From a virus (Duplodnaviria; Caudoviricetes): a stretch of 64,000 nt of DNA. The stretch lies in IMG/VR virus record IMGVR_UViG_2974629863_000001, positions 70,974 to 134,973 of that record; one strand, given 5' to 3'. Within the stretch, counting starts at the first letter, position 1. Each line of letters starts with the position of its first letter. A program made the position numbers and the translations under genes. Under the pieces are notes generated by a model, which was not told the origin of the DNA, ran no database searches, and was given only the letters and a program-made list of their open reading frames with translations. Below are positions 1-17,654 of this stretch, piece by piece.

Positions 1-2
1 AT

Positions 3-1199: not shown

Positions 1200-1201
1200 A
1201 G

Positions 1202-1942: not shown

Positions 1943-2392
1943 ATGTTTAATACATTCTCAAAGTGTCTAGAGCTAGCTGTACTTGCTCACAAGGGACAGA
2001 TTGATAAGATCGGAATCGACTACATCAATCATCCAATTGCAGTTGCTACTAAAGTAATGGAGCGTACTAACAAAGAAGAGGTCCATATTGCAGCAATCCT
2101 ACACGATGTAGTGGAGGATACTGTTTTTAGTATGGAAGTTCTTCGTCAATTGGGAGTTCCAGAATACTCATTGGAAATCGTTAAGCTTCTCACTAAGACT
2201 AAGGGTGAACCAAACATTGATTATTATCGCCGGATCAGAGAGCACGAAGATGCCAAGCTAGTAAAGATCGCAGACATAGAACATAACACATCTAAGTGGA
2301 GAATCGACCTTCTAGATGACCCTGAGTTAAAGGAACGTCTACTAGGTAAGTATTCATATGCTATGAAGGCACTGAATTTCGAGGTAGACTAA
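1943..2392 (+). CDS. HD-domain protein, RelA/SpoT-hydrolase (Mesh1/small alarmone hydrolase)-like
   Basis: AHKGQ.DK.G..YINHP, AAILHDVVEDT, LLTK, VKIADIEHN. Confidence 0.8.
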   Translation: MFNTFSKCLELAVLAHKGQIDKIGIDYINHPIAVATKVMERTNKEEVHIAAILHDVVEDTVFSMEVLRQLGVPEYSLEIVKLLTKTKGEPNIDYYRRIREHEDAKLVKIADIEHNTSKWRIDLLDDPELKERLLGKYSYAMKALNFEVD

Positions 2393-2718
2393 TGAATAAA
2401 TACAGTCCTATTAATAAATATGAAGAGCTAACGCCAGACGCGCAATATCCTTATGCTCTGGTTTGTTGGCATTATGGTGATCAGATTACATATCGAAAGC
2501 GACCACAGGCTAAGGCTATGCTTGGAAGGCATATGTTTAAAGCATCATCTTGGGATAATACCGCTAAGACACCATTTGGAATCCGTAAGTTCAAGTTATT
2601 CAAACTTGAAGCCGACGGTCGTTTTCACTTGATCTTTGATGATCAATCGCCTCTTGGTTTTGCTTATCGTCATGGCGATATCTCAGAAGAAGAGCTGAAA
2701 AAAGAAATCAACTGGTAA
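2392..2718 (+). CDS. Hypothetical protein, paralogue of 6794..7111
   Basis: Shared Y..R..AK..L segment and C-terminal I(S/T)E(E/D)EL...I(N/D)W. Confidence 0.5.
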   Translation: MNKYSPINKYEELTPDAQYPYALVCWHYGDQITYRKRPQAKAMLGRHMFKASSWDNTAKTPFGIRKFKLFKLEADGRFHLIFDDQSPLGFAYRHGDISEEELKKEINW

Positions 2719-2727
2719 TTCCGCTCT

Positions 2728-2770
2728 GCACCGACGCTGGCCCGCACGGTTGGCGTCGGTGCGCTAGGAT
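2728..2770 (+). promoter_or_regulatory. GC-rich inverted repeat followed by TAGGAT -10 box upstream of rIIA
   Basis: gcaccgacgc...gcgtcggtgc then gcTAGGATag; same -10 as other phage promoters in the window. Confidence 0.5.
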
Positions 2771-2800
2771 AGAGGAACACAACAACACAGAGGAAAATGA

Positions 2801-4762
2801 ATGATCCCGAATAAATCTACAATTTATACAGAGGGAAGTCTGGGCGGTGAAATCATCAACATGGGAGTTGATGAAAGCAGTCTTTCTAACATCATGAGCC
2901 TACTTACTGATATGTATTCAGATAAGATTATGGCATGTATCAGAGAATATTCCACTAACGCAGTAGATTCAAATATTGCAGCGGGGAATCCAGATCCAGT
3001 AAAAATCACTACTCCGACAGCACTTCATCCTTACTTAGTAATTAGAGATGAAGGACTAGGATTAAGTTCGGATGATATCAAAAAGATTTACTCTAGGTAT
3101 GGTGCAAGTACTAAGCGAGAGTCAAATGACTTTAACGGTACATTAGGAATTGGTTGCAAGGCAGCTCTTACCTATGCAGATCAGTTTACATTGACTGGAA
3201 TTAAAGATGGTATTGAAACTCTAGTTGCCATTAGCCGAAGTGCAGATGGTGCAGGAACAATGGAAATTGTTGCAGTTTCGCCAACTTCTCTACCCAATGG
3301 GGTAACAGTCCAAATTCCTGTAACTAAGCGAGATGACCGAGACATTTTCTATGACAAGGCAATCGAATTTGCTCGGTTCACTCGTGGAAGTGTTCTAGTT
3401 AATGGAAAGCATGTAGAACTAGATGGAAAGTTTGTTCATGATCAGTTTTGGGTTCGTGAACCAATTAGTCGTTGGTCTTCAAGAACTCCTCAGATTGTTA
3501 TGGGTGGAGTTGCCTACCCGATTGATGGAGAATACTTAGATGTTCCTGTCGGACGAGATAATTTAATCTATTTCGCCGAGATGGGAGAGGTTGACTTTCC
3601 ACCCTCTCGTGAGAGTCTAATGTATACTACCAACACAATTGCTACTCTTAAGAGAATTGAGAAAGAGTATACAGAATATCTAAAGTCCAGTTTTGAAGAT
3701 GAAATTTCAAAGAGTTTAGATATTCATGATGCTTGGTCAAAAGCAAAAAGTATTAATTACAAGTATAGTGCAAATTTTGAATTTCAATACAATGGATTAG
3801 AACTTCCAGAACATGTTGACGTTTTGGTTGGAACTTGGTCTACCAATTCATCATTATCCTCTTCAGCTAATTGGAGTTGGGTAGGTACTATTAATCATAA
3901 ATTGATTATCAATGGCTGGACCAATAAAGTATTTAGCAAGGTTCAATCTAGAAAGATCGTTAAGTATTTAGAAGAGCATCATCCAGATCTTAAAGATGAA
4001 ACTACAGCATATTTTATGCCGGAACTTCCAGAAGATCCAACCAAGAAGGCTCTTTTTGCTAAATGCACAGTTATTCACTGGGAAGACATCAAAACCGTAG
4101 CAGTGGCGGCAGCTCAGAAGACAGTTAAGCCTGAGCGTATGTGGATGAGAACAGATGATCGAGAAAAAGCACCAGACAAAACAAAGCAACTATACTATGG
4201 TCAGCGATCAGATTGGTCACATCGAGTAAGTGATCTATTTAATTCAGATGAAATTGAATCATACTATGTATCAAAGTCTCAGCAGCCAACATTCCTCAAG
4301 AAATACCCTGATGCTAAACCTCTTCATTCTTTAGGGAAGAATCTTGTGATAGAGTGGCTTCAGGGATTAACGGCAGATGATCATAAAGCATTCAGTCTGC
4401 ACGCTCATTTCTATGAGGCTTGGACATTGAATGTTGATGATATCTTAGATCCAGATCTAAAGCTTATGGTTCAAGCATCGAGTCAGTATCATACTAATAA
4501 GAAAACATCTCTGTTCGATACTAGACAGCAGATGCTACGTCTGAATTACTATGTCCCAGATGCAGAACTAAACGCTCTCGGATTAGTATTTCCTGATCTT
4601 GGATCAGGCGGGTCAGATGTATTAGATAAATATCCTCTGCTAAAATATACAGATCTAAGAGAATATCAATTTGATCTAGTAACGAAACCAGTAGTTAAGA
4701 AACAAATGACAGATTATGTAAATAATGTTTGGAAGGAACTAAACGCCAATGGCACAGTTTAA
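2801..4762 (+). CDS. rIIA: rIIA-like protein (N-terminal GHKL/HATPase domain)
   Basis: MYSDKIMACIREYSTNAVDS, IRDEGLGLS, YGASTKRESNDFNGTLGIGCK, NGVTVQIP; paired with an rIIB-like gene. Confidence 0.85.
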   Translation: MIPNKSTIYTEGSLGGEIINMGVDESSLSNIMSLLTDMYSDKIMACIREYSTNAVDSNIAAGNPDPVKITTPTALHPYLVIRDEGLGLSSDDIKKIYSRYGASTKRESNDFNGTLGIGCKAALTYADQFTLTGIKDGIETLVAISRSADGAGTMEIVAVSPTSLPNGVTVQIPVTKRDDRDIFYDKAIEFARFTRGSVLVNGKHVELDGKFVHDQFWVREPISRWSSRTPQIVMGGVAYPIDGEYLDVPVGRDNLIYFAEMGEVDFPPSRESLMYTTNTIATLKRIEKEYTEYLKSSFEDEISKSLDIHDAWSKAKSINYKYSANFEFQYNGLELPEHVDVLVGTWSTNSSLSSSANWSWVGTINHKLIINGWTNKVFSKVQSRKIVKYLEEHHPDLKDETTAYFMPELPEDPTKKALFAKCTVIHWEDIKTVAVAAAQKTVKPERMWMRTDDREKAPDKTKQLYYGQRSDWSHRVSDLFNSDEIESYYVSKSQQPTFLKKYPDAKPLHSLGKNLVIEWLQGLTADDHKAFSLHAHFYEAWTLNVDDILDPDLKLMVQASSQYHTNKKTSLFDTRQQMLRLNYYVPDAELNALGLVFPDLGSGGSDVLDKYPLLKYTDLREYQFDLVTKPVVKKQMTDYVNNVWKELNANGTV

Positions 4763-5810
4763 TTACGTATCTAAAGAAGGTACAGAAGTAGTAACCGCTC
4801 TAATCAATGGTAAGCTTCTCACAATTACCAATGATCATCCTAACTTCGAATCAGCTCTTAATCGTCTACGTAAAGTAGAAGACGGAGATGTAGAAGAATT
4901 TGACGAAATCGAAATGCTATTTGATCCGGTAAAGAAGATCGAAAAGGTATTCGCTAAGATTTCAACACGAGTTTCAATTGAAGATGGACAGGTTCTTTAT
5001 GAGGGTGATCCGATTCACTCAACTCTTGCAGATGAGATTCTTCGATTCCATAATGATGGTGATGACGGTTACGAACCTCTAGCTAAGTTCCTAGAGAAGG
5101 TTTACCAGAATCCGAATCCGCACAGTCGAGAAATGCTATTCGATTGGATTTCAGAGGCAGACCTTACTATTAATCGTGATGGTGACATTGTTGGTTACCG
5201 TGGACTAAATAGCGACTTCACCAGCAAGCATTCAGGTGGAGCAATTGTTAACGGTGAAAAGGTTAATGGTCACATTCCTAATAATCCTGGCAATGTTATT
5301 GAAATGGCACGTGGAGAAGTAACTTTCGATCCTCAGTCGGAATGTGCATATGGTCTACATATCGGTACGTACGATTACGCTAGCTGGTGGGGTCAGATTA
5401 TTGTCGAGTGTGTTATTGATCCTACAGACGTAGTTTCAGTGCCGGAATACGATCATCGAAAGATGCGTGTATGCCGTTACCGTGTAGTCGATGTTGTAGA
5501 TTCAAAGTACACGGATTCTTACCTAGATACAGGGTTTGATCCAGATGAGGACTTTGATGAAATTGCAGATGACGATGACTACTGGGATAACCATGACGCG
5601 CCGGAAGAGGCTGTAGAAGATACAGATAAGCCTGAGCCAGGTCTAGAATGGTTACAGCAAATTCTACAGAAGATTAATGTTCCGAAGCAGAATTACATCA
5701 CAAATAACTTTGTAGCACCTGCAGTGACAAACAATGTAGTAGATACTACAAAGAATCATCTAAAGCAGCAGCGTGATGCAAATGGACGTTTCATTAAGAA
5801 GGGAAACTAA
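4749..5810 (+). CDS. rIIB: rIIB-like protein
   Basis: FLEK...NP, LFDW, DGDIVGYRGL, C..GLHIG..YA, IDPTDVVSVP.YD..KMRVCRY. Confidence 0.85.
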   Translation: MAQFNYVSKEGTEVVTALINGKLLTITNDHPNFESALNRLRKVEDGDVEEFDEIEMLFDPVKKIEKVFAKISTRVSIEDGQVLYEGDPIHSTLADEILRFHNDGDDGYEPLAKFLEKVYQNPNPHSREMLFDWISEADLTINRDGDIVGYRGLNSDFTSKHSGGAIVNGEKVNGHIPNNPGNVIEMARGEVTFDPQSECAYGLHIGTYDYASWWGQIIVECVIDPTDVVSVPEYDHRKMRVCRYRVVDVVDSKYTDSYLDTGFDPDEDFDEIADDDDYWDNHDAPEEAVEDTDKPEPGLEWLQQILQKINVPKQNYITNNFVAPAVTNNVVDTTKNHLKQQRDANGRFIKKGN

Positions 5811-5954
5811 TATGTTAGTATATCTAACTGGTAGAGCAGAATTTATTGAAGTAGATGCTGATTCTCATGTAATAAATGCAGATAAAGTATTAGTATTGTA
5901 TAAGGGCGATGAAAGAGTCGCTTCATTTTCAAATTGGGACGGTGTAGTAAAGGT

Positions 5955-6107
5955 ATGAATCTAACACGAGTAAGTACAGCAGATCTAATTAAGGAACTCA
6001 ATGCACGAACGGTCGGTGGAAAGAAGTACGATCCCCGACCCATTGATTCACGACTCAATCATCTAAGTATGAAGCGTGATAAGTTAGGCCGTTTCATTAA
6101 GGCTTGA
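5955..6107 (+). CDS. 50-aa basic peptide sharing the rIIB C-terminal tail motif
   Basis: Manually translated MNLTRV...LNHLSMKRDKLGRFIKA; start overlaps previous stop; below the ORF-track cutoff. Confidence 0.55.
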   Translation: MNLTRVSTADLIKELNARTVGGKKYDPRPIDSRLNHLSMKRDKLGRFIKA

Positions 6108-6132
6108 CAAAGTTAGTCTGATCTGTTAAGAT
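6104..6132 (+). promoter_or_regulatory. SigA-type promoter for the first tRNA operon
   Basis: TTGACA(6104-9)-17 bp-TAAGAT(6127-32). Confidence 0.75.
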
Positions 6133-6138
6133 CAACAA

Positions 6139-6240
6139 TATTGATTAGGTCGTAGTCCCAGCCTAAGTATTTAGAAATGCTTTTCAGCCGAGGGTAGGTG
6201 CTGATAAGGAATTGCAACTTTCTAAATGGCCTAATCAATA
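6139..6240 (+). ncRNA. About 102-nt rod-like structured RNA leader before tRNA-Thr
   Basis: Nested stems tattgattagg/cctaatcaata, atttagaaa/tttctaaat, tcagc/gctga; runs from the predicted TSS to the tRNA 5' end. Confidence 0.55.
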
Positions 6241-6241
6241 C

Positions 6242-6317
6242 GCCGGGTTAGCTCAGTTGGTAGAGCGTCATACTTGTAATGTGAATGTCAGGAGTTCGAT
6301 TCTCCTACCCGGCTCCA
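6242..6317 (+). tRNA. trnT: tRNA-Thr(UGU), CCA encoded
   Basis: gccgggt/acccggc acceptor, loop cttgtaa, T loop ttcgatt. Confidence 0.95.
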
Positions 6318-6318
6318 T

Positions 6319-6392
6319 TTCCTTATAGTGTAATTTGGCAAGCACGACAAGCTCTGGTCTTGTTAGTTTGGGTTCGAGTCCTGATAAGGAAG
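6319..6392 (+). tRNA. trnQ: tRNA-Gln(CUG)
   Basis: ttcctta/taaggaa acceptor, acaag-ctctggt-cttgt anticodon arm, ttcgagt T loop. Confidence 0.9.
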
Positions 6393-6490
6393 CGGTGCGT
6401 AGATTTCAATAGGGACGAAGGTTGTGAAAACAATCGGAGCGCCAACCGACACAGATCATCCTTAACGATCTATCCAGTCTGTGTCACATA

Positions 6491-6561
6491 CCTTCTGTAG
6501 CATAAAGGTAATGCCCTAGGTTGTGGGCCTAGTTAAGACGGATCAGTACCGTCCAGAGGGA
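6491..6561 (+). tRNA. trnH: tRNA-His(GUG) with atypical T loop, no genomic G-1, A73
   Basis: ccttctg/cagaggg acceptor, ctagg-ttgtggg-cctag, gacgg-atcagta-ccgtc. Confidence 0.8.
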
Positions 6562-6793
6562 CAATAAAAAGGAGTAATAATGGATGACACATTTGATTTC
6601 CCAGAAGCATTGATGAAATACCAACCTGAAAAAATGAAAGGTTGGATTGTTACAAAGGAACTAATCGACGGAATCGTTAAAGAAGTTTGGACCGCAGAAG
6701 AAGGTTCAGAAGCCGACGATTGGCTACGAGATATTTTAAGCAGAGACCGATCACAAGCCAAGCCATATGTACGTAAGACTAAAAGGAAAACAG

Positions 6794-7111
6794 ATGACTC
6801 AGTATGATGCAACCAGTACAGCAAAGGTAGGCGTTCCTAATCCAAAGCGAGCAACACATGCTACTTACAAGATAGGACGACAGCCAAAATTAAAATATCA
6901 AACACGCGGAGAAGCTAAAAACGCTTTACGATGGTGTCTTTCAGAGGGTGCAACCACTAGAAGTGGCAATAAGAGCATGTCTAGAATGACCGTCTACAAG
7001 TTTACAAATGATGAATATGTCCCTATTTTTGATTCATTGTCAGAGCTAGCAAAGGCATACATTGATGCCAAGATCACAGAAGATGAATTATTTAATCTAA
7101 TAGATTGGTAA
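6794..7111 (+). CDS. Hypothetical protein, paralogue of 2392..2718
   Basis: RBS aggaaa; YQTRGEAKNAL...ITEDELFNLIDW. Confidence 0.5.
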   Translation: MTQYDATSTAKVGVPNPKRATHATYKIGRQPKLKYQTRGEAKNALRWCLSEGATTRSGNKSMSRMTVYKFTNDEYVPIFDSLSELAKAYIDAKITEDELFNLIDW

Positions 7112-7996
7112 CTAATGGTAAATCTAAATGCAATTGGGATTAGGTTAGTTATGATGGAAAATTCCATTCAAAAGGCATGGCTTGATGGTGACATTTCAGA
7201 AGAGCTAATGGATAAATTATTGGGATGCTTGCAAGAATGTATTAATATTGGGCATGGTTTAAATGCCGATGGGAGCTTTAATGTCATTAATGAACAAGGT
7301 ACGAATTAGTACGGAATTAGCCGGGTTTGATTGGCTTATTGTAGTATCTGCATTAGATGCATATATGATTGAACATGAAGGTCAAATGGATTTTCTAGAT
7401 CTAATAGAGTTTGTAGAGCATATTGAAAGTAGAATTCAAGAATGAGTTGGAAAGATAGCTTTTATGAAGAGGTTAAAAAGTACTTAGCTTCAAAGCATGA
7501 TCTGCATCATGTAGAGCGTATCACAAGTGTAAAAGAAGAAGAAACTTCTGGTCCTATGTGTGGAGAGGGAACTTGTTGGGATTCGTGGAAGGTTGTAGAG
7601 ATTGATTATGTCGATTCATATGGTTACAACCAATATGTAGAAGTTAGAATGGACCTTGTAGAATTTATGGAGCAGCTATGAGAGAAAATAAGATCTATAT
7701 TCTAGCAAAGTACGGAGATAAACTGACTTGCCCCGGTTGCAAAGAAACATTGATATTTGATCAAATGGACGGTTGGAGAAACGATAACGGACTCACTTGC
7801 GTCCAAAGGACAACGCATTCAGATCACATCATTACGGAGCTGCAGTGAGTATACTAGTAAGTATCTTGATCGGACTAGCAATACCTGTCGCATTTCTGTT
7901 TGTCGTCCAGCGTCTTGTAGGTGACCCGAACATGATCAAAGACGCATGGAAGTGCCGACGTCGCCTATTTAATCACAAGTCTTCGGAGAGGTCACT

Positions 7997-8557
7997 ATGA
8001 GCTATTTAGCAAACTACGCCGGATCAGATAGGCATTATCATACCTTTGAACACATTGGTAAAATGATATCCGATCTTAACAAGTATTTCCCTGAGTATAA
8101 AGACGATCAAGTACTCAAAGATGCAATCATGTATCACGACTGTATCTATAGAGCAGATGCACCATCAGGGTCAAACGAGATGAATAGCTTCAATGCAGCA
8201 GCAGAAGAACTAAAGATCAGTCCCTACAGTGGCAAGTATGCAGAACTCAAGGGTCTTATTATGGCAACTCATAAACATGAGAATCCTGTGACTATGAAGC
8301 AGGCGATTATCATTGATTTAGATTTAGCTGGTCTAGCATCAGACAATTATATGCAAAACTCAATCAATGTACGCAAGGAATATCACATCTTCTCAGATCT
8401 ACAGTGGTTGCGTGGGCGCAAGGCATTTTTGGACAGTTTCATGGGCCGCAAAATCTACCAGACCGAAACGGGCCAACAATGGGAGAATCGTGCTAAGCTG
8501 AACTTGGCCGACGAGCTGGTTCACGTCGAGCGGAAATTGTTCCAACTCAGGGCTTGA
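7997..8557 (+). CDS. HD-superfamily metal-dependent phosphohydrolase
   Basis: RHYHTFEHI, AIMYHDCIY, ATHKH, DLDLAGL, VRKEY, GRKAFL, RAKLNL. Confidence 0.8.
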   Translation: MSYLANYAGSDRHYHTFEHIGKMISDLNKYFPEYKDDQVLKDAIMYHDCIYRADAPSGSNEMNSFNAAAEELKISPYSGKYAELKGLIMATHKHENPVTMKQAIIIDLDLAGLASDNYMQNSINVRKEYHIFSDLQWLRGRKAFLDSFMGRKIYQTETGQQWENRAKLNLADELVHVERKLFQLRA

Positions 8558-9357: not shown

Positions 9358-9708
9358 GTGTCTATTTATACTGATATGATTGAAATCCTTAGAGAACGTG
9401 GATTGGCTATCGGGACTCCTATTGATGAAGAAGGAAAGTGCTGTTTGCTTGGTGCTAAGGCTTTGGCTCAAGGCACAAGTGAAGTTGAAATCAATGATAC
9501 CATCAATGTCTTTAATGGAGATGGAATTGAAGAGCTGGTAGCTATTTGCTCGGATCGCCGGAATCACAATAAAGCCTTTAATCACAACAAACAATCTTAT
9601 ACTTATGTATGGGCTTATAGTGATGAATTTATCCAAGGAAATACAGATGCTGCAATTGCACTTCTAGAAGAAGCTGAATCTCTCCGACAAAACAAAACTG
9701 TAGTATAA
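9358..9708 (+). CDS. Hypothetical protein, MSIYTDM/CCLLG paralogue family (copy 1)
   Basis: Same N-terminus and CC(L/I)LG, EEL, LLEEAE motifs as 32751.. and 33100.. Confidence 0.6.
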   Translation: MSIYTDMIEILRERGLAIGTPIDEEGKCCLLGAKALAQGTSEVEINDTINVFNGDGIEELVAICSDRRNHNKAFNHNKQSYTYVWAYSDEFIQGNTDAAIALLEEAESLRQNKTVV

Positions 9709-9751
9709 TTTAGACCTTGGAAGTGATTCACTACTCCGATTCACTTCCTTC

Positions 9752-9824
9752 GCCTCCGTAGCTCAGCGGACAGAGCAAATCACTTCTAATGATTAGGTCG
9801 CAGGTTCGATCCCTGCCGGGGGCA
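9752..9824 (+). tRNA. trnR: tRNA-Arg(UCU)
   Basis: gcctccg/cgggggc, aatca-cttctaa-tgatt, ttcgatc T loop. Confidence 0.95.
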
Positions 9825-9825
9825 C

Positions 9826-10122
9826 ATGAAAACAACAAATAAAGTATACTCAAGTTCATTCGACGCACTAGGTCGATCACCACTAGAAACAGAACAACTA
9901 AAACTACGAGCAGCATTACTCCGAGAAATCAGAGATCACTTCTTAAACGAAGGATTGAATGAGCGAGAATTGGCGGCACTGTTGGATATCTCAATGAAAC
10001 AAGCCAGTGATTTGTACTACGCCAAATTCTCATCATTCACACTCGATGATCTACTAATGTTCATGTACCGTGGAAAACTATACTTCGATGAAATCAAGTT
10101 CTTCAACGGTTTAGGATACTAG
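9826..10122 (+). CDS. XRE-family HTH protein, HigA-like
   Basis: LKLRAALLREI....GLNERELAALLDIS...ASDLYYAKFSSFTLDDL. Confidence 0.65.
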   Translation: MKTTNKVYSSSFDALGRSPLETEQLKLRAALLREIRDHFLNEGLNERELAALLDISMKQASDLYYAKFSSFTLDDLLMFMYRGKLYFDEIKFFNGLGY

Positions 10123-10433
10123 AAAGTATTTCTTATGAAAATGTTAGGTAAGATCAAAAATCCTAAAGTATGCGAGTATGGCTATAGATGCTGCAGAGAA
10201 TATAGTAAAGACAGGGTACCAAATGGCCGGATGAGAGAGAAACGTGCATTCAACTCTGAGATTCAAGATGAACTAGTCGAAGCAGGATACCAACTACAAT
10301 CACTAGACGATTATAGAAAAGACTACTATTCTTCTTGGTTTACTTTAGAAGATCTTGACGATTCTAATTTCATTATAGAAGAAATTCAAGAGATGAAATT
10401 AACATTTAATAATGTAAATTATTATCCAGCCGC

Positions 10434-10462
10434 TTGACAAATCAGAAAAGGTGTGGCAGAAT
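10434..10462 (+). promoter_or_regulatory. SigA-type promoter upstream of the second tRNA cluster
   Basis: TTGACA(10434)-17-CAGAAT(10457) with upstream TG. Confidence 0.5.
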
Positions 10463-10670
10463 GATTGAAACATGGCGCAGGGATGACGGTTGGGAAGTGG
10501 AACTAGAATTAGCGGAAGATGGTAGTTTAATTTCTACAAATCATATTCCAATGGTTAATGCTCCAAGACCTGATCCTCTTACATATCAATATATGTTTTT
10601 TGCACTTTTAGCTCATGGTTATGTGAAAATTTAATAGCAGGTTGGAGTTATCCGTAACGTCCAACTATTC

Positions 10671-10743
10671 GGTGCATTAGCTCAGCTGGTAGAGCAACGT
10701 CCTCTTAAGTCGTGGGTCATTGGTTCAAGTCCAATATGCATCA
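10671..10743 (+). tRNA. trnK: tRNA-Lys(CUU)
   Basis: ggtgcat/atgcatc, acgtc-ctcttaa-gtcgt (U30-U40 mismatch), ttcaagt. Confidence 0.9.
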
Positions 10744-10788
10744 CGTGGCGGGTTTTGATGGTTTCCTGGAGAACAAAATATCATCAAT

Positions 10789-10865
10789 GCGAGTGTAGTG
10801 TTTAACATGGTCTAGCACGTCAGTCTTCCAAACTGAAAGTGTGGGTTCGAATCCCGTCATTCGCT
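10789..10865 (+). tRNA. trnG: tRNA-Gly(UCC)
   Basis: gcgagtg/cattcgc, tcagt-cttccaa-actga, ttcgaat. Confidence 0.9.
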
Positions 10866-10868
10866 CTG

Positions 10869-11067
10869 TCTACTAGGACTCATAATCCTAGTGAGATATA
10901 GGTTAGTCGCTAGTTTTTAATTGATTTGCCGATTGATTAAAGATAACAGACTCATAAGGGACGGCAATCCCTTTAGTCATGTAACATGTAGGGCAGGGTT
11001 CGACTCCTTGTAAAGGTGGGATACTAGACTCATGAGGTCACCTTAGTGTAATGGGCACACTGTTGCA
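10869..11067 (+). ncRNA. Structured tRNA-mimic RNA: CAU anticodon hairpin, kissing hairpins and permuted T-acceptor-D core
   Basis: actagga-ctcataa-tcctagt; loops ttgccg and cggcaa; gcaggg-ttcgact-ccttgt then aggtgg/tcacct then tagtgtaatgggcacac, closed by tgtaaca/tgttgca. Confidence 0.7.
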
Positions 11068-11072
11068 ATTAA

Positions 11073-11146
11073 GCTGAATTAGCTCAGTAGGTTAGAGCGC
11101 TTCACTGATAATGAAGAGGTCCGTAGTTCAAGTCTACGATTCAGCA
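11073..11146 (+). tRNA. trnI: tRNA-Ile(GAU)
   Basis: gctgaat/attcagc, cttca-ctgataa-tgaag. Confidence 0.95.
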
Positions 11147-11185
11147 CCGGCGTCATTATAGAAATATAACAGCACGCCGATCAAA

Positions 11186-11257
11186 GGTCTCTTAGCTCAG
11201 TTGGTAGAGCGTTCGGTTGAAGCCCGTTGCGCGTAGGTTCGATTCCTACAGAGACCA
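11186..11257 (+). tRNA. trnF: tRNA-Phe(GAA), weakened anticodon stem
   Basis: ggtctct/agagacc, ttcgg-ttgaagc-ccgtt, gtagg-ttcgatt-cctac. Confidence 0.85.
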
Positions 11258-11259
11258 CT

Positions 11260-11829
11260 ATGAAAGAACAAATATTAGAGTTAAGATCTAAGGGTTATTC
11301 CTATAAAAAGATAGTAGAAGAGTTAGGCTGTTCTATAGGTACGGTTTCTTATCATTGCGGGGAAGGACAAAAAGAAAAGAAAACAATTAGGTCTAAGTTA
11401 CATAAAGTGGCTAATCCATTAGTATATAAGATTTATAAATTTAAATTAAATAGACCACAAGCAAAAGCTAAAGTTGGAAGAGTAGGAATCAGAGCTAAAG
11501 TTAGAGACTTCCAAAGGAATAGAAGTGAAAACGGATCGTATTCTAGTGGTCGAGATTTTAATTTTACAACAGAAGATCTTTTAAAGTGTTTAGGAGATGA
11601 GCCCTCTTGCTATCTTACTGGAAAAGCGATTGACTTATCAAAACCAGAGACTTATAGTCTAGATCATGTAATTCCAGCTAGTAAAGGCGGAGAAAACATA
11701 TTAGATAATCTAGGGTTAGCCTCCAGAAAAGCAAATATGGCAAAGAGTGATTCCTCTTTAGAAGAATTCATAGAGATGTGCTATGATGTACTGATTCACT
11801 GGGAAATCATTGAAAAGATTGATAATTAA
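11260..11829 (+). CDS. HNH homing endonuclease with N-terminal HTH, inserted in the tRNA cluster
   Basis: ILELRSKGYSYKKI..ELGCS..TVSYH; CYLTG...SLDHVIPASKGG...DNL......N..K; very AT-rich. Confidence 0.85.
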   Translation: MKEQILELRSKGYSYKKIVEELGCSIGTVSYHCGEGQKEKKTIRSKLHKVANPLVYKIYKFKLNRPQAKAKVGRVGIRAKVRDFQRNRSENGSYSSGRDFNFTTEDLLKCLGDEPSCYLTGKAIDLSKPETYSLDHVIPASKGGENILDNLGLASRKANMAKSDSSLEEFIEMCYDVLIHWEIIEKIDN

Positions 11830-11835
11830 ATATTT

Positions 11836-11919
11836 GGTGGGTCTTACATTTGGCGTGTTAAGCTGTCTTGAAAACAGTCAAGGGTGAAACCGATGAGAGT
11901 TCGAATCTCTTGCCCACCG
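11836..11919 (+). tRNA. trnS: tRNA-Ser(UGA), atypical D arm
   Basis: ggtgggt/gcccacc, gctgt-cttgaaa-acagt, long variable arm, ttcgaat, G73. Confidence 0.85.
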
Positions 11920-11921
11920 CT

Positions 11922-12023
11922 TTGAATGTAAGGATTTACCACTCGGGACTTATTGCTTGGGTTATCGAGCTATGGACTTCCGCAATTCTCCAATAAATAA
12001 CAGCAATTGAGGAGAGCATTCAA
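11922..12023 (+). ncRNA. Structured spacer RNA between tRNA-Ser and tRNA-Asn
   Basis: Closing stem ttgaatg/cattcaa; internal gcttgg-gtta-tcgagc; ctcc/ggag. Confidence 0.4.
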
Positions 12024-12027
12024 TTAA

Positions 12028-12100
12028 TCCCGCATAGCTCAATTGGCAGAGCACGGAGCTGTTAACTCCGGGGTTCTTGGTTCGAGTCCAAGTGTGGGAG
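12028..12100 (+). tRNA. trnN: tRNA-Asn(GUU)
   Basis: tcccgca/tgtggga, cggag-ctgttaa-ctccg. Confidence 0.95.
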
Positions 12101-12419
12101 CTTTATACAACAACTATTCGAAAGGCATTATCAATGAGTCGTCGGTACGTAAGATATGAAGTTGATGCAAATTTTAATTTAATTTCAGCTACAGCCACTT
12201 CATTTTCAACTTTTGATGCGGATCTTATCGATCCGAAAGCGCATTACGTATACATCATTCCCTGGTCAGATTCTATTTCAGGCGCTAATCATCTAATATG
12301 GTCTGCAAAAGAAGGATACACTGATATAAAGAATGATCCAAAATTCAGAAAATATGAATTGATTAAAGAAGAGCTAATCGAACAATACGGTTCAATCGAA
12401 AACTAACAAAGGAAATAAA

Positions 12420-14498
12420 ATGCTAGTAGATCTTAAGAGAAACTTCATTACTACTAATGATTCTCGCTCACCCGCAACTGATCAGGAAAAGGTCGCATTT
12501 ATTCTAGAGGCAGCTAATCTAGGATACGCAGTTCCTTTCGAAGCAATTGCCAAGGTTTCAAATGCCAATCTTTTGAATGTTCTTAACAACATGAAGACAT
12601 TTAAGGGTGTCGGTAAGGATTGGACTCCTTTTTACCCTAACTTCCCTCGCCAGGTACAGTTGGCATCGGGTTGGGAACTCTTCTTGAATGCTTTTATTCA
12701 TTACGGCAGTATGGCATTTGGTCGTGATATTCGTCCAGATTACCCAGTGGAGATTCGCCGGAAGCTAGAAGTAGTTTCAGAAGATCTAACTCTACTTACA
12801 CTAGTAGAAGAAGAAGAACTACTTACCTCTGAGATTGAAACCCTTCAGAATAAGGTCTCTCTTTCGGCAGAAGACTTTGTTAGCATCACGAATGCAATTG
12901 TTCAGTATGGAATCAACAAGTCTGTCAAGTTGATTGATGGTTTCAAGTTTGATAACAAGGAAAACTGGATTCAGTCTCTCAAGATTCTAATTGATCTTGA
13001 AGTTCCTGTTTATAAGGTAGAAGCTATTGCTTACAAGGAAGCTAAGACTGCAACAGATCTTTTGCGTGCAATTTTCATGCTGTACTCAGATGAGAATGTT
13101 CACATTGATCTAACTGCTAAGAATAAGAAGGTTTACCTCAAGTCTATTCCGCGTGCTTCTCGTCAACTGATTATCGAGAATATTGATTCATCAGATTACA
13201 ATATGGATGACTTCTTTATTCATCGTAAGCTCTGGAAGATTGTGGATCGTAAGATTCATCCAGGAGATTATTCTAACTTCACGAATGCTCTAAATGCATT
13301 TGATATTGTTCGTGGTACTGTCAAGTACAAGACGTTCAATTCACGTGTAGAGTCTGCCATTGCTTCAGGTAATGCAGCAGATATCGCAAGCCTTCTGAAG
13401 ACTCGTCCTGGTGTCTTTGCCCGTCGTCTAGATCATGCTCTACGATCAGTAGATGCAGATGGACAGAAGACAATTGCAGAGGCTTTTGGTTCTGTGGCAA
13501 CTAAGATCAGCACTCCTGTTCTTATTTCACTCTACAATGGCATTATCAATCGTGACAATACAGCTTCAGTAATTCGCACTAAGTCGGGGCAGACTGCTAA
13601 TGTTACCAATGTTAAGGCATCTATTCATGATGTAATTGTATTTGCCATTGGTGAGATTATTCTCGCAGCTCTTAGTGCAAGTTATGCAGATCGTGATCCT
13701 ATGGGTAAGGTCTATGTTTCGCCGGATCTTAAGAACTTTTCTGCACCACTACAGCAGCGTACTGTTTCTTCAGGTCGTGTATTGCCACGTGGATCACGAG
13801 TTCCGATGGAAATAGAAGGCACTCTACGATTCTTTATTCATTGGTACAATATGGATGAAGCATATGGTCGGGTTGATCTTGATATGGACGCAATCTTTCT
13901 AGATGATAATCTAGTGGTTCAGGATTTCGTTTCATATCATCGTCTACGCAATACATATTCAACTCACTCAGGTGATATCACCAATGCCCCACTTCCAAGC
14001 GGAGCTGCAGAGTTTGTTGATGTTGACGTAGCTAAGGCAAAGCGTCAAGGGGTTCGATACGTATTGATGAATATCAATAGCTTCACTGGTCAGAAGTTTG
14101 ATCAGGTAGAGAACTTTGCTGGTTACATGGTTCGCAATGGTGATCCGCAGGATGGAGAAATCTTCGATCCTAAGACTGTAAAGAGTGCATTTAGTATTTC
14201 ATCTCCTACGGGAAATGCAATGCCAGGTGTATTCGATCTAGAGGCTGGTCTATTTGTTTGGCTGGACACTTCATTGGGCAATGCGGGCGTAGGCTTCAAC
14301 GCTCGCCAGGGTTCGACCGAGCTAGCCGAAACGCTTCGACTCGAGCTTGACAAGCAGTCGCTCACGGTGTACGATGTAATTACAGCCAACGCAAAGGCAC
14401 GCGGAATCCTAGTAGAGAAAGATGATGCAGATGTTATCTACGATCTTGAAACATTAGATATCTACGATTCAAACGGATTCATTAACAAGTTTCTTTAA
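12420..14498 (+). CDS. Large helical-domain + C-terminal TerD-domain protein (candidate Ro/TROVE-like RNA-binding protein)
   Basis: TerD motifs RFFIHW..VDLDMDA, HSGDITNAP, AAEFVDVD, NSFTGQKF; long helical N-terminal region (FYPNFP, TATDLLR, IHPGDY, RPGVFARRLD); ncRNA array immediately downstream. Confidence 0.7.
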   Translation: MLVDLKRNFITTNDSRSPATDQEKVAFILEAANLGYAVPFEAIAKVSNANLLNVLNNMKTFKGVGKDWTPFYPNFPRQVQLASGWELFLNAFIHYGSMAFGRDIRPDYPVEIRRKLEVVSEDLTLLTLVEEEELLTSEIETLQNKVSLSAEDFVSITNAIVQYGINKSVKLIDGFKFDNKENWIQSLKILIDLEVPVYKVEAIAYKEAKTATDLLRAIFMLYSDENVHIDLTAKNKKVYLKSIPRASRQLIIENIDSSDYNMDDFFIHRKLWKIVDRKIHPGDYSNFTNALNAFDIVRGTVKYKTFNSRVESAIASGNAADIASLLKTRPGVFARRLDHALRSVDADGQKTIAEAFGSVATKISTPVLISLYNGIINRDNTASVIRTKSGQTANVTNVKASIHDVIVFAIGEIILAALSASYADRDPMGKVYVSPDLKNFSAPLQQRTVSSGRVLPRGSRVPMEIEGTLRFFIHWYNMDEAYGRVDLDMDAIFLDDNLVVQDFVSYHRLRNTYSTHSGDITNAPLPSGAAEFVDVDVAKAKRQGVRYVLMNINSFTGQKFDQVENFAGYMVRNGDPQDGEIFDPKTVKSAFSISSPTGNAMPGVFDLEAGLFVWLDTSLGNAGVGFNARQGSTELAETLRLELDKQSLTVYDVITANAKARGILVEKDDADVIYDLETLDIYDSNGFINKFL
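14347..14375 (+). promoter_or_regulatory. Intragenic SigA-type promoter facing the ncRNA array
   Basis: TTGACA(14347)-17-TACGAT(14370) in a GC-rich patch near the 3' end of the TerD gene. Confidence 0.6.
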
Positions 14499-14504
14499 GT
14501 AGTA

Positions 14505-14575
14505 ATAGGGATTAAGAATAGTTTACTTCTACTATTAATTGGATAATAAAAAAACTAACTATCCGCTCACCCTAT
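14505..14575 (+). ncRNA. Y-RNA-like repeat unit 1
   Basis: ataggg-ATTAA-gaatagtt-TACTTC-loop-aactatcc-GCTCA-ccctat. Confidence 0.75.
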
Positions 14576-14586
14576 ATCACTTAACA

Positions 14587-14655
14587 AAGAGGCTCAAGTA
14601 TAGGTTACTTCCTTTTTATATGACAAAAAACAAATTACCTATGCGCTCACCTCTT
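14587..14655 (+). ncRNA. Y-RNA-like repeat unit 2
   Basis: aagagg-CTCAA-gtataggt-TACTTC-loop-acctatgc-GCTCA-cctctt. Confidence 0.75.
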
Positions 14656-14665
14656 CTAAATTTCA

Positions 14666-14791
14666 TCAGGATTAAGATTAACTTACTTCGCCTCTTAAGC
14701 GGGTGGGTACGGGTTCGAATCCCGTTGCTAGTGATATCACTGGTATAGCTCAATTGGCAGAGCAACCTTTTTCAGTTAATCGCTCGCCTGG
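14666..14791 (+). ncRNA. Y-RNA-like repeat unit 3 containing a circularly permuted tRNA-Lys(CUU) mimic (YrlA-like)
   Basis: tcagg-ATTAA-gattaact-TACTTC-[cgc-ctcttaa-gcg; acggg-ttcgaat-cccgt; tgctagtg-atat-cactggta; tagctcaattggcagagca]-agttaatc-GCTCG-cctgg. Confidence 0.85.
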
Positions 14792-14799
14792 CAAACTTC

Positions 14800-14862
14800 A
14801 GAAGGCTTAAATATGACTTACTTCTATGAATCGGTCAAATATTAGTCATATGCTCACCTTCT
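14800..14862 (+). ncRNA. Y-RNA-like repeat unit 4
   Basis: agaagg-CTTAA-atatgact-TACTTC-loop-agtcatat-GCTCA-ccttct. Confidence 0.75.
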
Positions 14863-17654
14863 CTTAGCCAACAAGGATATCATTTAATGATAGACAAATA
14901 TTACGTAATTGTAACAAACAAATACACCGCCCACCACCTAGACATCTTCGAAGAATTTTGGGGTGGGTCTTTTTGGTTTAAAGCCAATGCCCAAAGAGCA
15001 GCATTTTTCGTAAGCAATAGTCCTGAAGTCATTCGTGAACAATGGACTGTGATGGTAGAACTCAGACCTAAGAACACTCCACGCAAAACTTTTCCACACC
15101 GATAGGAAACCAATGATTTCGACAGTTAAGTATTGGTCTGTTGAAGACGAAGAGCCGGTAGTAAAAGACATCTATAAAGTGTCACCGATAAACGAATACG
15201 AATATTACATCGAATATACCGACCTAGGAAAACACTGGGTAAGTCTTCTACTTAAAATGCACCAACACTACATTAACTCTGAGATTGATCAATTCGTTGC
15301 CACTTCACAGGCAGTTGAATACGGCAAAAAAGCAGTCATAAAAATTCTACTTGAAAACTATTGGCCGATTGAAAGAATAGTTGAAGAATATAGAGAACCG
15401 GGCTTATATGATTACCAGTTTAAAAACTGGTATGATCTGGCCTGTCCACTACCAGATGATGATCAAGATTGGCTCGGACTCCACCGACGCCAAGATAGAT
15501 TTATTAAGATCGGACAATGATGCACGTCTATTATGCAGAGTGGAATTCAACAGTAAACGAATGGTTCGGATATACCCCGAACATGCCAAGTGTTAAATGT
15601 TTTCATGTTAGTGCTGCAACTGCACTCCAAAATATTAAAACGGTACATGAATGGTACTTAGGAGAACCAGATGTCAACGAACTACTATCTATATAAGAAG
15701 TGCTCTGACGCTTGCCTACATTGCACTGGTGAAATAGAACTTCACATTTGCAAGAACCTAACAATGTTTAGAGCCTACGAAATAGAAGATACTTCGATCA
15801 AGAGCTGGCAAGACTGGATTGCTTACCTAGCAACTCAAGTTTATTTGAATGACGGTCTCATTAAAGATGAGTACGGCAGGATACATTCTCTTGATTATTT
15901 CATTCACAGTGTAAATGAAACCACATTAGAAAGCAGACGAAAGTATTATGACTACAGTGTTGAGCATTTTGGGCCTGATGACTCTTTTTGGCTTGATCCT
16001 CAAGGTTTTGATTTCACCGCGAAAGAGTTTAGCTAGTCTGAAGAAGTGTTTTGGTTTTCGAAATCAAAGCGGTTTGTCTGGCTATACCACTCTAAGAATC
16101 TTCAAAATCAGCTTCTATTTCCACCCTCGCTACTCTTGGGTAGAGCAATGGTCTTGGGAGCGAGGCCGGTGTGAAGAGAGACGTCTACGTTTCCCACTAG
16201 GTAAGAAATACTCTCTAGAGATTTACGGCGAAGGAAAGACTTACTTAGAACTAGTTAATGGTCCAGAGTATCTCAAGGATCTTGACTGGATTCTAGATGA
16301 GTTTGATTCTAGCTTTAATGATCTAGCGACTGCAAGTCTTCGATACCACTTGGATCATTCAATTTGTGATCAATCACGTAATCGTGAGAAGTATGAAGAT
16401 ATTATCGAGCGTCTAGCAGAAAAATCGCCGGAAGTGTGTGGTACCCCTGAGCAAAGAGCTATTTATGACGAACACTACAGTAATGAAACTGTAGAAGAAA
16501 TGTTCGAAAATCTCAATAAGCCTACCCCACCAGCAATCAAAGAAATCTATGCAGACTTTGATAAGCGTGAAAAAGAATATCATGAACGCCAACTGCAGGC
16601 TAGGATTGACTTTGTGAAGGTCATGCCGGGACTTTGGAGCTAATATGATTAATCTGTACTTTGATCTAAAAGATTCCATTCTGCCAGTGAAGGTATCGTT
16701 TGAACATACAGATGGGCTTAGCCTAGAAATTGGCTTAACAGCAGAAATGATTCATGATGCACATCAATGGTTAGAGGAGCAAGGATTATGAGCTGGGAAT
16801 CAGTCTGGGTTGGTAGTATTCCTGAAGAGTCAATTGATAGACGAGTTGATGTTCTAAAATGGGCATTTGGATATCTTGACGGAGACCCTAATTCCATTGA
16901 CGAATATCAATGGCGATATATGGCCGAGCAAACAATTCTGGATAATCCAACTATGATGATTGCAGCTCATGATTTTCCAGCTCCCTTAGAGTGGGAATAT
17001 TCAGTTTATGGCGATCGTTTATATGAAGATCGTGAGCCAATGAAAGATATTATGCTTTCAACTTGGGATTGGAACTTGAAAGCAGTTCAAAAAATGGCAG
17101 AGTATTGGAACGAAAACGAACACACTGAAAATGCCAAAGTATATTGCAGGCTAGCGTCTGACAAAGTAGAGTTTAAGGATGAAAACAATGCCTAATGGTG
17201 ATCTAACTCGACAGAACAAGTCACTACGAACTAAGGTTCTAAATCAGCGAAAAGAAATTAAGACTCTAGTTAAGCGTCTAGAAAATGTAGAAACGCTTAA
17301 CTCAACTGCATATCTTCAGGGGTATGCAAAGGCTCTAGAGCTGATGAATGGTTCTTGCAGTGACTAGGTACATTGTAGAGAGTAATGGCCTGTATGGAGA
17401 TGATTTAGTAGAGTTAATAGAACTTGGCCTAGCATCAAAGATGAATATATCCAGAGAAACTGTTCAGGGTTTAATGTGGTCATGTTGCTATATTTCAGCA
17501 GGCGAATTCGAAGGTATTACTATTAAATACTACGAAAAAGATAAAGTCTATGTAGCCGACGATGGTTGTATGCTTTACTATGGTTCTGGACTAACAGAGC
17601 AGGACGCTTTGCAAGATTTTATAAATGAACGCCGCCAGAGAACTAAGGATGATA

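What the first reader, a model, noticed from the sequence alone, without database searches (positions are those of the whole stretch)
10869..11067. Second tRNA mimic between tRNA-Gly and tRNA-Ile: CAU anticodon hairpin, kissing loops and a permuted tRNA core
Seen in sequence: (i) a perfect 7-bp hairpin with the Met-type loop CTCATAA (10872-10892). (ii) Two hairpins whose 6-nt loops TTGCCG (10926-31) and CGGCAA (10962-67) are exact complements. (iii) A permuted core: T arm gcaggg-TTCGACT-ccttgt, acceptor-like aggtgg/tcacct closed by a loop holding the palindrome CTCATGAG, and D arm tagtgtaatgggcacac, all closed by tgtaaca/tgttgca. GACTCAT occurs three times. Processing of the flanking tRNAs would release it as a roughly 200-nt RNA. 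Established: VapC toxins cleave the CUCAUAA loop of tRNA-fMet; complementary loops drive RNA oligomerisation (phi29 pRNA). Inference: a multivalent, possibly self-assembling Met-anticodon decoy of an undescribed family.
Basis: partly seen in the sequence, partly recalled or inferred. Interest (0 to 1): 0.85.

Follow-up and report, generated by a model that had tools for sequence, protein, structure and literature searches.

The report
Phage tRNA look-alike with sealed acceptor end
The spacer holds a small RNA gene of about 90 bases shaped like a back-to-front tRNA with no anticodon, better conserved between Rhodococcus phages than their real tRNAs, while the 'Met-anticodon, self-assembling decoy' in front of it is a separate, poorly conserved insertion.

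Summary

**Core, 10980-11067.** This is a circularly permuted tRNA-like cloverleaf: a closing helix at the anticodon-stem position, then a T arm, a loop-closed acceptor-like hairpin and a D arm.
- It recurs after tRNA-Gly(UCC) in Rhodococcus phage NiceHouse and in a 132.5-kb soil-metagenome phage contig.
- All three versions fold alone into the same four-way junction.
- All 17 hairpin pairs are kept, one through a double change (U-A to C-G).
- Identity to NiceHouse is 85%, against 59-78% for 12 shared tRNAs.
- The topology is that of the YrlA (bacterial Y RNA) tRNA-like domain. There is no Ro60 gene, no Ro-binding stem and no Rfam hit.

**5' part, 10868-10979.** This holds the CUCAUAA hairpin and the complementary loops, and it is a separate indel.
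- It is missing in the soil contig and in NiceHouse.
- One contig has it without the core.
- In a close variant the loop reads CUUGUAA.
- It contains diverged copies of the core's loop, which explains the three GACTCAT.

**Most likely function (inferred).** An uncleavable tRNA-body mimic, released by tRNA processing, that competes for a tRNA-binding factor.

This scan has noted YrlA-like mimics in other phages' tRNA arrays before. I class this as a new variant of a known kind.

The parts
10789..10865 (+). tRNA-Gly(UCC), upstream flank. The core follows this tRNA in all three phages that carry it.
   Evidence: Rfam tRNA 53.4 bits. NiceHouse and the X6 contig have the same neighbour.
10868..10979 (+). 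112-nt 5' module, a separate indel. It holds hairpin H1 (10867-10898, loop CUCAUAA), AU-rich hairpin H2 (10913-10944, loop (U)UGCC(G)) and hairpin H3 (10956-10973, loop CGGCAA).
   Evidence: MFE z = -3.1. Skipped exactly in the 132.5-kb X6 contig and absent in NiceHouse. No homologue in any collection searched.
10942..10959 (+). Diverged copy (15/18) of the core's 18-nt loop. A second, shorter copy lies in H1 (10871-10885).
   Evidence: the repeat finder family D1 and alignment A3. Chance about 3e-5.
10980..10986 (+). Closing helix, 5' strand, at the anticodon-stem 3'-strand position.
   Evidence: Pairs with 11061-11067. C10985U and G11065A in the variants keep pairing.
10993..11011 (+). T arm: stem of 5-6 bp, loop UUCGACU (T54 Psi55 C56 R57 A58 pattern, G53-C61 pair).
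   Evidence: G.U to A-U and G.U to G-C in NiceHouse.
11013..11044 (+). Acceptor-like hairpin, 7 bp, closed by an 18-nt loop.
   Evidence: U11017-A11040 becomes C-G in NiceHouse, a double change.
11020..11037 (+). Loop GAUACUAGACUCAUGAGG. The 3' 13 nt, UAGACUCAUGAGG, are invariant in the three versions. Positions 11022 and 11024 vary.
11046..11060 (+). D arm GUGU-AAUGGGC-ACAC (A14, G18 G19 pattern), preceded by U A.
   Evidence: U-A to U.G in NiceHouse. The loop is invariant.
11061..11067 (+). Closing helix, 3' strand. Five nt later tRNA-Ile begins.
11073..11148 (+). tRNA-Ile(GAU), downstream flank. Its RNase P site would set the 3' end of the released RNA.
   Evidence: In NiceHouse the downstream neighbour is tRNA-Gly(GCC) instead.

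Best explanation
Window 10980-11067 is a stand-alone gene for an RNA of about 90 nt that copies the body of a tRNA in circularly permuted order. Its ends lie where the anticodon stem would be. There is no anticodon loop. The acceptor end is sealed by an 18-nt loop whose 3' 13 nt are invariant.

This is the architecture of the tRNA-like ('effector') domain of YrlA Y RNAs, here without the Ro60-binding stem and without a Ro60 gene.

Shown: the fold, its conservation, and its independence from the 5' 112 nt.

Inferred:
- It is co-transcribed with the Lys-Gly-Ile-Phe tRNA operon.
- It is freed when the flanking tRNAs are matured: RNase P at tRNA-Ile, and 3' processing of tRNA-Gly.
- It folds into an L shape through the T-loop/D-loop elbow.
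- It acts as a tRNA look-alike that cannot be cut in an anticodon loop, so it competes for a tRNA-binding factor. The most plausible target is a host tRNA-directed nuclease or defence. The sealed-end loop would add specificity.

The 5' 112 nt (CUCAUAA hairpin, complementary loops) is a lineage-specific insertion built partly from duplicated pieces of the core's loop. Its function, if any, is open.
For: **Fold**
- The window, NiceHouse and X6/X1 versions each give the same four-way junction as their own MFE.
- Linker lengths fit the permuted tRNA order, not the normal order (against 10.1101/312249).
- The T loop UUCGACU, and the D loop with A14 and GG preceded by UA, match tRNA tertiary-contact positions.
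- ARAGORN calls the in-silico un-permuted core a tRNA at a relaxed threshold, and of 500 shuffles.

**Conservation**
- 85% identity to NiceHouse, against 59-78% for 12 isoacceptor tRNA comparisons between the same two phages.
- BLAST similarity begins and ends at the element.
- All 17 pairs of the three hairpins are kept in the three sequences: four single changes and one double change. Both closing-helix changes in X6/X1 keep pairing.

**Modularity**
- The core is present without the 5' half (X6 contig, NiceHouse).
- The 5' half is present without the core (X1 record 3).

**Context**
- A promoter-like site lies at 10434-10462 and there is no terminator in 9600-12500.
- The phage encodes RtcB at 17625-18839.
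- Further T-AS-D modules occur at window 14686-14768, at NiceHouse about 80520-80600 and in Trina. In Trina they lie directly upstream of a Ro60/TROVE gene.

**Published idea**
- Competitive inhibition of an anticodon nuclease has been proposed for the YrlA tRNA-like domain (PMC7790460).
Against: - Only three distinct sequences exist, two of them 95% alike, so the covariation rests on one double change plus wobble-mediated single changes.
- High identity could reflect recent transfer rather than constraint.
- Two to three unpaired nt separate the T stem from the acceptor-like stem (0 in tRNA and in S. Typhimurium YrlA). The 15:48 pair would be A:G. The mimicry is therefore imperfect.
- The element is dispensable in close relatives: Grayson and Peregrin lack it, and so does one X1 variant.
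- There is no direct evidence on expression, processing or any partner.
- The loop has no outstanding complementary target in the phage genome.
Confidence: 0.55

Rival explanations
1. One reading: the whole 207-nt spacer is one RNA that displays several Met-type (CAU) anticodon loops and oligomerises through its complementary hairpin loops, acting as a decoy for a tRNA-fMet/Met-directed nuclease such as VapC.
For: - H1 has the exact CUCAUAA loop of the phage tRNA-Met.
- Three (G)ACUCAU(A/G)A motifs cluster in the spacer.
- The loops UUGCCG and CGGCAA are exact complements, P about 0.007 in shuffles.
- The 5' half folds better than shuffles, z = -3.1.
Against: - The two halves occur separately in relatives.
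- The 5' half is absent in NiceHouse.
- In the X1 variant CAU becomes UGU in H1 and CGU in the second motif, and the closing pair of H1 is lost.
- The motif repeats are explained by duplication of the core's loop.
- There is no covariation in the complementary loops, because they do not vary.
- No homologue of the 5' half exists anywhere searched.
Confidence: 0.07
2. The core is a functionless relic of tRNA gene shuffling. A tandem tRNA pair was truncated at both ends, which automatically leaves the order T arm, acceptor 3' strand, spacer, acceptor 5' strand, D arm. It was then carried around by recombination or by the nearby HNH homing endonuclease.
For: - Duplication followed by truncation yields exactly this permuted order.
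- Presence or absence varies among close relatives.
- An HNH endonuclease gene lies at 11260-11829.
- tRNA dimers are known false positives for YrlA models (PMC4201824), and such hits were seen at real tRNA junctions in Grayson and Peregrin.
Against: - It is better conserved than every real tRNA shared by the two phages.
- Stem changes keep pairing, including a double change. The loops are nearly invariant.
- It keeps a discrete closing helix in three different contexts.
- A decaying relic should diverge faster than functional tRNAs, not slower.
Confidence: 0.15
3. The element is a substrate or guide for tRNA-processing enzymes rather than a decoy. Like M. smegmatis YrlA, its 7-bp acceptor-like stem is cut by RNase P (predicted between 11037 and 11038), and the upstream piece is trimmed and CCA-tailed, giving a two-piece tRNA-like RNA. 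Alternatively it serves in cis to organise maturation of the neighbouring tRNAs.
For: - The stem is 7 bp, as in the RNase P-cleaved M. smegmatis YrlA. The host is a related actinobacterium (PMC4201824).
- The element sits flush between two tRNAs.
- NiceHouse encodes a CCA-adding-type nucleotidyltransferase.
Against: - A 2-3-nt linker interrupts the acceptor/T-stem stack that RNase P measures.
- The invariant part of the loop would be a discarded 5' leader.
- The neighbouring tRNAs are matured without it in relatives that lack the element.
Confidence: 0.12
4. It is a Y RNA in the full sense: a partner of a Ro60 protein supplied by the host or by a co-infecting phage, tethering Ro60 to an effector.
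For: - The related phage Trina carries two T-AS-D modules directly upstream of a Ro60/TROVE gene.
- M. smegmatis, a relative of the host, has Rsr and YrlA (PMC4201824).
Against: - There is no TROVE gene in this phage, NiceHouse, Grayson or Peregrin.
- The closing helix is only 7 bp and ends at the flanking tRNAs, so there is no room for a Ro-binding stem.
- There is no GNCGAA motif.
- Whether the host has Ro60 could not be tested here.
Confidence: 0.08

Closest known systems
YrlA (Y RNA-like A; Rfam RF02553), tRNA-like effector domain. Chen et al. 2014 (PMC4201824); Wang et al. 2018 (bioRxiv 10.1101/312249).
   Same: - Same order: stem at the anticodon position, variable region, T arm, loop-closed acceptor-like stem, 2-nt UA, D arm, back to the stem.
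- tRNA-type T and D loops.
- 7-bp acceptor-like stem, as in M. smegmatis YrlA.
- YrlA is also known from actinobacteriophages.
   Different: - No Ro60-binding helix or motif, and no Ro60 gene in the genome.
- Flush between tRNA genes.
- 2-3 extra nt between the T stem and the acceptor-like stem.
- Large 18-nt loop with an invariant 13-mer.
- No Rfam hit. However, the Ro-adjacent Trina RNA also scores only 23.7 bits against the 69-bit cut-off.
Other T-AS-D modules in cluster CB/CE Rhodococcus phages: window 14686-14768, NiceHouse about 80520-80600, Trina 84212-84321 and about 84458-84515.
   Same: Same permuted, closed-acceptor cloverleaf inside or beside tRNA arrays of the same phage group.
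   Different: - No detectable sequence homology beyond the generic T and D loops.
- The others have the T stem abutting the acceptor-like stem.
- The module at 14686-14768 also keeps a full Lys(CUU) anticodon arm, and ARAGORN calls it a tRNA at default settings once un-permuted.
Circularly permuted tRNA genes of Cyanidioschyzon merolae and some other algae (from my own knowledge).
   Same: The 3' half of the cloverleaf is encoded upstream of the 5' half.
   Different: Those yield a normal, charged tRNA after circularisation and processing at the acceptor end. Here there is no anticodon loop, and the acceptor end carries a conserved loop.
phi29 pRNA and HIV-1 DIS type loop-loop ('kissing') oligomerisation (from my own knowledge).
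   Same: Two hairpin loops in the 5' module are exact 6-nt complements. The core's loop holds an 8-nt palindrome, CUCAUGAG.
   Different: No covariation, no conservation of the 5' module, and no link to a packaging motor. This is resemblance only.

Membership tests
YrlA / bacterial Y RNA (RF02553) | T-arm-like and D-arm-like stem-loops with tRNA-type loop nucleotides | tested here: met
   UUCGACU T loop with a G53-C61-type closing pair. D loop AAUGGGC with A14 and GG, preceded by UA.
YrlA / bacterial Y RNA (RF02553) | Loop-closed acceptor-like stem between the T and D arms (circularly permuted order) | tested here: met
   7-bp stem 11013-19 / 11038-44 with a compensatory U-A to C-G change. However, 2-3 nt separate it from the T stem, where Salmonella YrlA has none (10.1101/312249).
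YrlA / bacterial Y RNA (RF02553) | 5'/3' stem continuing into a Ro60-binding helix with the GNCGAAN0-1G motif | tested here: not met
   The helix is 7 bp and is bounded by tRNA-Gly (or the insertion) and tRNA-Ile. There is no GNCGAA in 10866-11072.
YrlA / bacterial Y RNA (RF02553) | Gene linkage to rsr (Ro60, TROVE domain) | tested here: not met
   No TROVE match in this genome or in NiceHouse. Trina, a relative, does have it next to such RNAs. DUF2828 search: none, but there was no positive control.
YrlA / bacterial Y RNA (RF02553) | Rfam covariance model score at or above 69 bits | tested here: not met
   No hit at E<=10 in the window. 14.3 bits for the NiceHouse copy. The model is insensitive here: the Ro-adjacent Trina RNA scores 23.7 bits.
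tRNA or tRNA pseudogene (RF00005) | Cloverleaf in normal order with an anticodon arm, detectable by tRNA models | tested here: not met
   No RF00005 hit in 10866-11072 at E<=10. ARAGORN finds none. After in-silico un-permutation it is called only at the relaxed -ps90 setting.
tmRNA (one-piece or permuted two-piece) | tRNA-Ala-like acceptor and T arm plus a tag reading frame | tested here: not met
   ARAGORN tmRNA search on the window and the genome is negative. No Rfam tmRNA hit.
Kissing-loop self-assembling RNA (pRNA-like) | Loop complementarity maintained by covariation in homologues | tested here: inconclusive
   The loops are complementary (P about 0.007). They do not vary in the only variants, and the module is absent from the other relatives.

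The most novel reading that the evidence does not exclude
Anticodon-less, acceptor-sealed tRNA mimics of this kind work without Ro60 as phage counter-defence RNAs. The tRNA-shaped body docks onto a host tRNA-targeting nuclease or sensor. The invariant UAGACUCAUGAGG loop, placed where the CCA end would be, blocks or mis-directs that factor. This would protect the phage's and the host's tRNAs alongside the phage's RtcB ligase.
Probability: 0.2. Interest if true: 0.8.

Novelty: new variant of a known kind. Interest (0 to 1): 0.5.

Why it matters
- Large phages carry tRNA arrays and RNA ligases that are thought to counter tRNA-cleaving host defences.
- A small RNA that copies the tRNA body but has nothing to cleave, and that is better conserved than the phages' real tRNAs, would be a third, RNA-based arm of that counter-measure.
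- It would also show that the YrlA-type tRNA mimic can act without Ro60. That bears on the still unknown effector of the YrlA tRNA-like domain.
This match is an inference.
- NiceHouse is also cultured on R. erythropolis, so the idea can be tested directly.

Tried and rejected
**Homologue searches that found nothing**
- Exact-pattern scans for the loop, T-arm and D-arm blocks found nothing in IMG/VR, JGI metagenome contigs or GTDB genome contigs. The natural variant GAAAAUAG... shows that the first 18-mer pattern was too strict.
- blastn of the spacer against 50,697 phage records at E<=10 found only NiceHouse.
- Model R1 on Grayson, Peregrin and Trina gave only T arms of real tRNAs.
- The search for related loci with the 692-aa protein and the rIIB-like protein found no relatives in IMG/VR.

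**Alternative folds and codings**
- A mascRNA-like fold (CCUUUA/UAAAGG stacked on the T arm, 14 bits) is rejected because the 5' strand is absent in NiceHouse.
- A mini-hairpin GAGG-UCA-CCUU competing with the acceptor-like stem is disfavoured by the U-A to C-G double change.
- An antisense role for the invariant loop is not supported. The best duplex in the phage genome is -15 kcal/mol, weaker than the mean best of shuffled loops, -16.8.
- Protein coding is rejected: only 20-30-aa ORFs overlap the spacer.

**Protein context**
- The 692-aa neighbour as a Ro60 relative: BLASTP against Trina Ro60 is not significant, there is no PDB sequence match, and the ESM Atlas places it with TerD-named clusters.

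**Expression and literature**
- No RNA holder was listed among public runs.
- The supplement of PMC4201824 and the paper PMC5062991 are not held.
- Whether the host encodes Ro60 could not be tested.

Full report
**Setting.** The window is the right-hand 64 kb of a 134,973-bp virus record with direct terminal repeats and 41% GC.
- Its nearest sequenced relatives are the cluster CB Rhodococcus erythropolis phages Peregrin and Grayson, at about 73% nucleotide identity over 60% of window 1-8000.
- Length, GC and repeats match the third CB phage, Weasels2, as tabulated in PMC13313380. That identification is an inference.
- The finding lies in a tRNA operon: Lys(CUU) 10671-10744, Gly(UCC) 10789-10865, the 207-nt spacer, Ile(GAU) 11073-11148 and Phe(GAA) 11186-11258, followed by an HNH endonuclease gene.
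- A promoter-like site lies at 10434-10462. No terminator-like site lies in 9600-12500.

**Observation.**
- The 7-bp hairpin with loop CUCAUAA is present.
- Two hairpins carry loops that are exact 6-nt complements.
- The order T arm, closed acceptor-like hairpin, D arm is present, shut by a 7-bp helix.
- Rfam gives nothing in the spacer at E<=10 apart from a 14-bit chance-level hit.

**The core is a conserved, discrete module.**
- BLAST of the region against 50,697 phage records found one homologue. It is an 88-nt spacer between tRNA-Gly(UCC) and tRNA-Gly(GCC) of Rhodococcus phage NiceHouse (cluster CE). It aligns with window 10978-11069 only.
- Laying contigs of public DNA runs on the stretch gave a third version. 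A 132,550-nt contig from a run labelled soil metagenome, and a 211-nt contig from another study, share four changes: 10985 C>U, 11022 U>A, 11024 C>A and 11065 G>A.
- Each of the three versions folds on its own into the same four-way junction.
- Of the 17 pairs in the T, acceptor-like and D hairpins, all are kept in all three sequences. The changes are G.U to A-U, G.U to G-C, U-A to U.G, and the double change U-A to C-G in the acceptor-like stem. The two closing-helix changes in the third version also keep pairing. In NiceHouse the closing helix re-registers with one bulge.
- The D loop is invariant, the T loop has one change, and the 3' 13 nt of the 18-nt loop (UAGACUCAUGAGG) are invariant.
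- Identity to NiceHouse is 85%. Twelve isoacceptor tRNA comparisons between the same two phages give 59-78%. The element is therefore the best conserved RNA gene these two phages share. A decaying tRNA remnant should show the opposite.

**The spacer is two modules.**
- The 132.5-kb contig joins 10867 to 10980 with one letter between. That gives tRNA-Gly, three bases, core, tRNA-Ile, with no 5' half.
- A 114-nt contig joins 10959 to 11073 through 16 other letters. That gives the 5' half, then tRNA-Ile, with no core.
- NiceHouse has the core alone. Grayson, Peregrin and Trina have neither.
- In the variant that keeps the 5' half, hairpin H1 survives but its loop reads CUUGUAA and its closing pair is lost. 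The second motif reads AACUCGUAA. H2 takes three changes, two of which keep pairing.
- The complementary loops do not change, so they are untested. Locally such complementarity is uncommon (0.7% of shuffles), but that is weak after a 64-kb scan.
- The three GACTCAT are real and clustered (P about 3e-4), but they have a simple origin. 10942-10959 is a 15/18 copy of the core's loop 11020-11037, and its alignment continues into the acceptor-like 5' strand with an 8-nt insert that carries CGGCAA. H1 holds a second, shorter copy.
- The 5' module therefore looks like a lineage-specific insertion, built partly by duplicating the core's loop segment.

**What the core is.**
- The linker pattern is 6-7 nt before the T arm, 1-3 nt to the acceptor-like stem, 1-2 nt (UA) to the D arm, and 0-1 nt to the closing helix. 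The identities of the T and D loops fit a tRNA opened in the anticodon stem and closed at the acceptor end.
- This is the published architecture of the YrlA tRNA-like domain. In Salmonella YrlA the T stem-loop is 33-49, the acceptor-like stem 50-64, the D stem-loop 67-81, and the anticodon-position stem 15-27/83-93. The authors call it a circularly permuted tRNA with a closed acceptor stem (PMC4201824; 10.1101/312249).
- The M. smegmatis YrlA has a 7-bp stem, is cut there by RNase P and then receives CCA.

**The same design recurs in this phage group.**
- Window 14686-14768: YrlA model 26.4 bits. It carries a full Lys(CUU) anticodon arm. ARAGORN calls it tRNA-Lys at default settings once un-permuted.
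- NiceHouse about 80520-80600.
- Two modules in Trina, directly upstream of a Ro60/TROVE gene.

**Membership in YrlA proper fails on three tested features.**
- There is no Ro-binding stem or motif.
- There is no TROVE gene in this phage or NiceHouse.
- There is no Rfam hit. That model also gives only 23.7 bits to the Ro-adjacent Trina RNA, so it is a weak judge here.
- I therefore file the core as 'works like the YrlA tRNA-like domain', not as a YrlA.

**Mechanism.**
- Shown: fold, conservation, modularity and context.
- Inferred: co-transcription with the tRNAs and release by their processing; an L-shaped fold through the T/D elbow; and action as a tRNA body that cannot be cleaved in an anticodon loop.
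- The phage encodes RtcB 6.6 kb downstream. PMC13313380 reads the RNA ligases and tRNAs of these phages as counter-measures to tRNA turnover by host defences.
- Hughes et al. (PMC7790460) proposed that the YrlA tRNA-like domain may competitively inhibit an anticodon nuclease.
- I take that as the most likely mode of action. I put about 0.3 on the decoy step itself, and 0.55 on the overall statement that this is a functional, stand-alone tRNA-body mimic that titrates a tRNA-binding factor.

**Limits.**
- There are three distinct sequences only, two of them close.
- There is no direct evidence on expression or processing.
- Host Ro60 status is unknown.
- Imperfect mimicry at the T/acceptor junction and at the 15:48 position weakens the tRNA analogy.

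**Novelty.**
- The kind is known. YrlA-type permuted tRNA mimics include phage examples, and earlier notes of this scan report similar RNAs in other phages' tRNA arrays, usually beside Ro60-like genes.
- What differs here is a bare tRNA-like module with no handle and no Ro60, flush between tRNA genes, carrying a conserved loop at the sealed end, and better conserved than the tRNAs around it.

Noticed in passing
window 14686-14768 (+): A complete circularly permuted tRNA-Lys(CUU): anticodon hairpin, T arm, an 8-bp acceptor stem closed by AUAU, then a D arm whose 20 nt are identical to tRNA-Asn's. Rfam YrlA scores 26.4 bits. After in-silico un-permutation ARAGORN calls it tRNA-Lys at default settings. 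It lies in a 390-nt intergenic array with repeated GCTCAC and TACTTC motifs.
   Followed up: partly
window 11836-11918 (+): An unannotated tRNA-like gene: 7-bp acceptor GGUGGG.., anticodon loop CUUGAAA (UGA, Ser-type), a long variable arm and a canonical T arm. The Rfam tRNA-Sec model gives 30.8 bits (cut-off 47). ARAGORN misses it.
   Followed up: partly
window 17625-18839 (+): RtcB RNA ligase (Pfam 406 bits), 6.6 kb downstream of the element. Grayson also has RtcB. NiceHouse lacks RtcB but has a CCA-adding-type nucleotidyltransferase (MT521992 130669-131034).
   Followed up: partly
L032 (Rhodococcus phage Trina NC_042040 83200-84600), about 1013-1122 and 1259-1315: Two T arm / closed acceptor / D arm modules directly upstream of the phage's Ro60 (TROVE) gene at 84599-86203. 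GenBank annotates part of the region as a 209-nt pseudo 'tRNA-OTHER'. Rfam YrlA scores only 23.7 bits.
   Followed up: partly
L010:1517-1595 (NiceHouse MT521992, about 80516-80594): A clean YrlA-type module: closing helix CUCUGU/GCAGAG, T arm, a 7-bp closed acceptor-like stem, UA, then a D arm. This phage has no TROVE gene.
   Followed up: partly
window 12420-14498 (+): A 692-aa protein with no Pfam or PDB sequence match. The ESM Atlas groups it with 'TerD family' clusters of actinobacteria and phages. It shows no similarity to Trina Ro60. It sits just upstream of the ncRNA array at 14499-14886.
   Followed up: partly
window 11260-11829 (+): A free-standing HTH + HNH endonuclease gene immediately after tRNA-Phe. 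It is a possible driver of the presence/absence mosaic of tRNA-cluster modules among relatives.
   Followed up: no
window 10789-10865 (+): tRNA-Gly(UCC) has an unusually long D loop (13 nt between the D-stem strands). Rfam finds it (53.4 bits) but ARAGORN does not.
   Followed up: no
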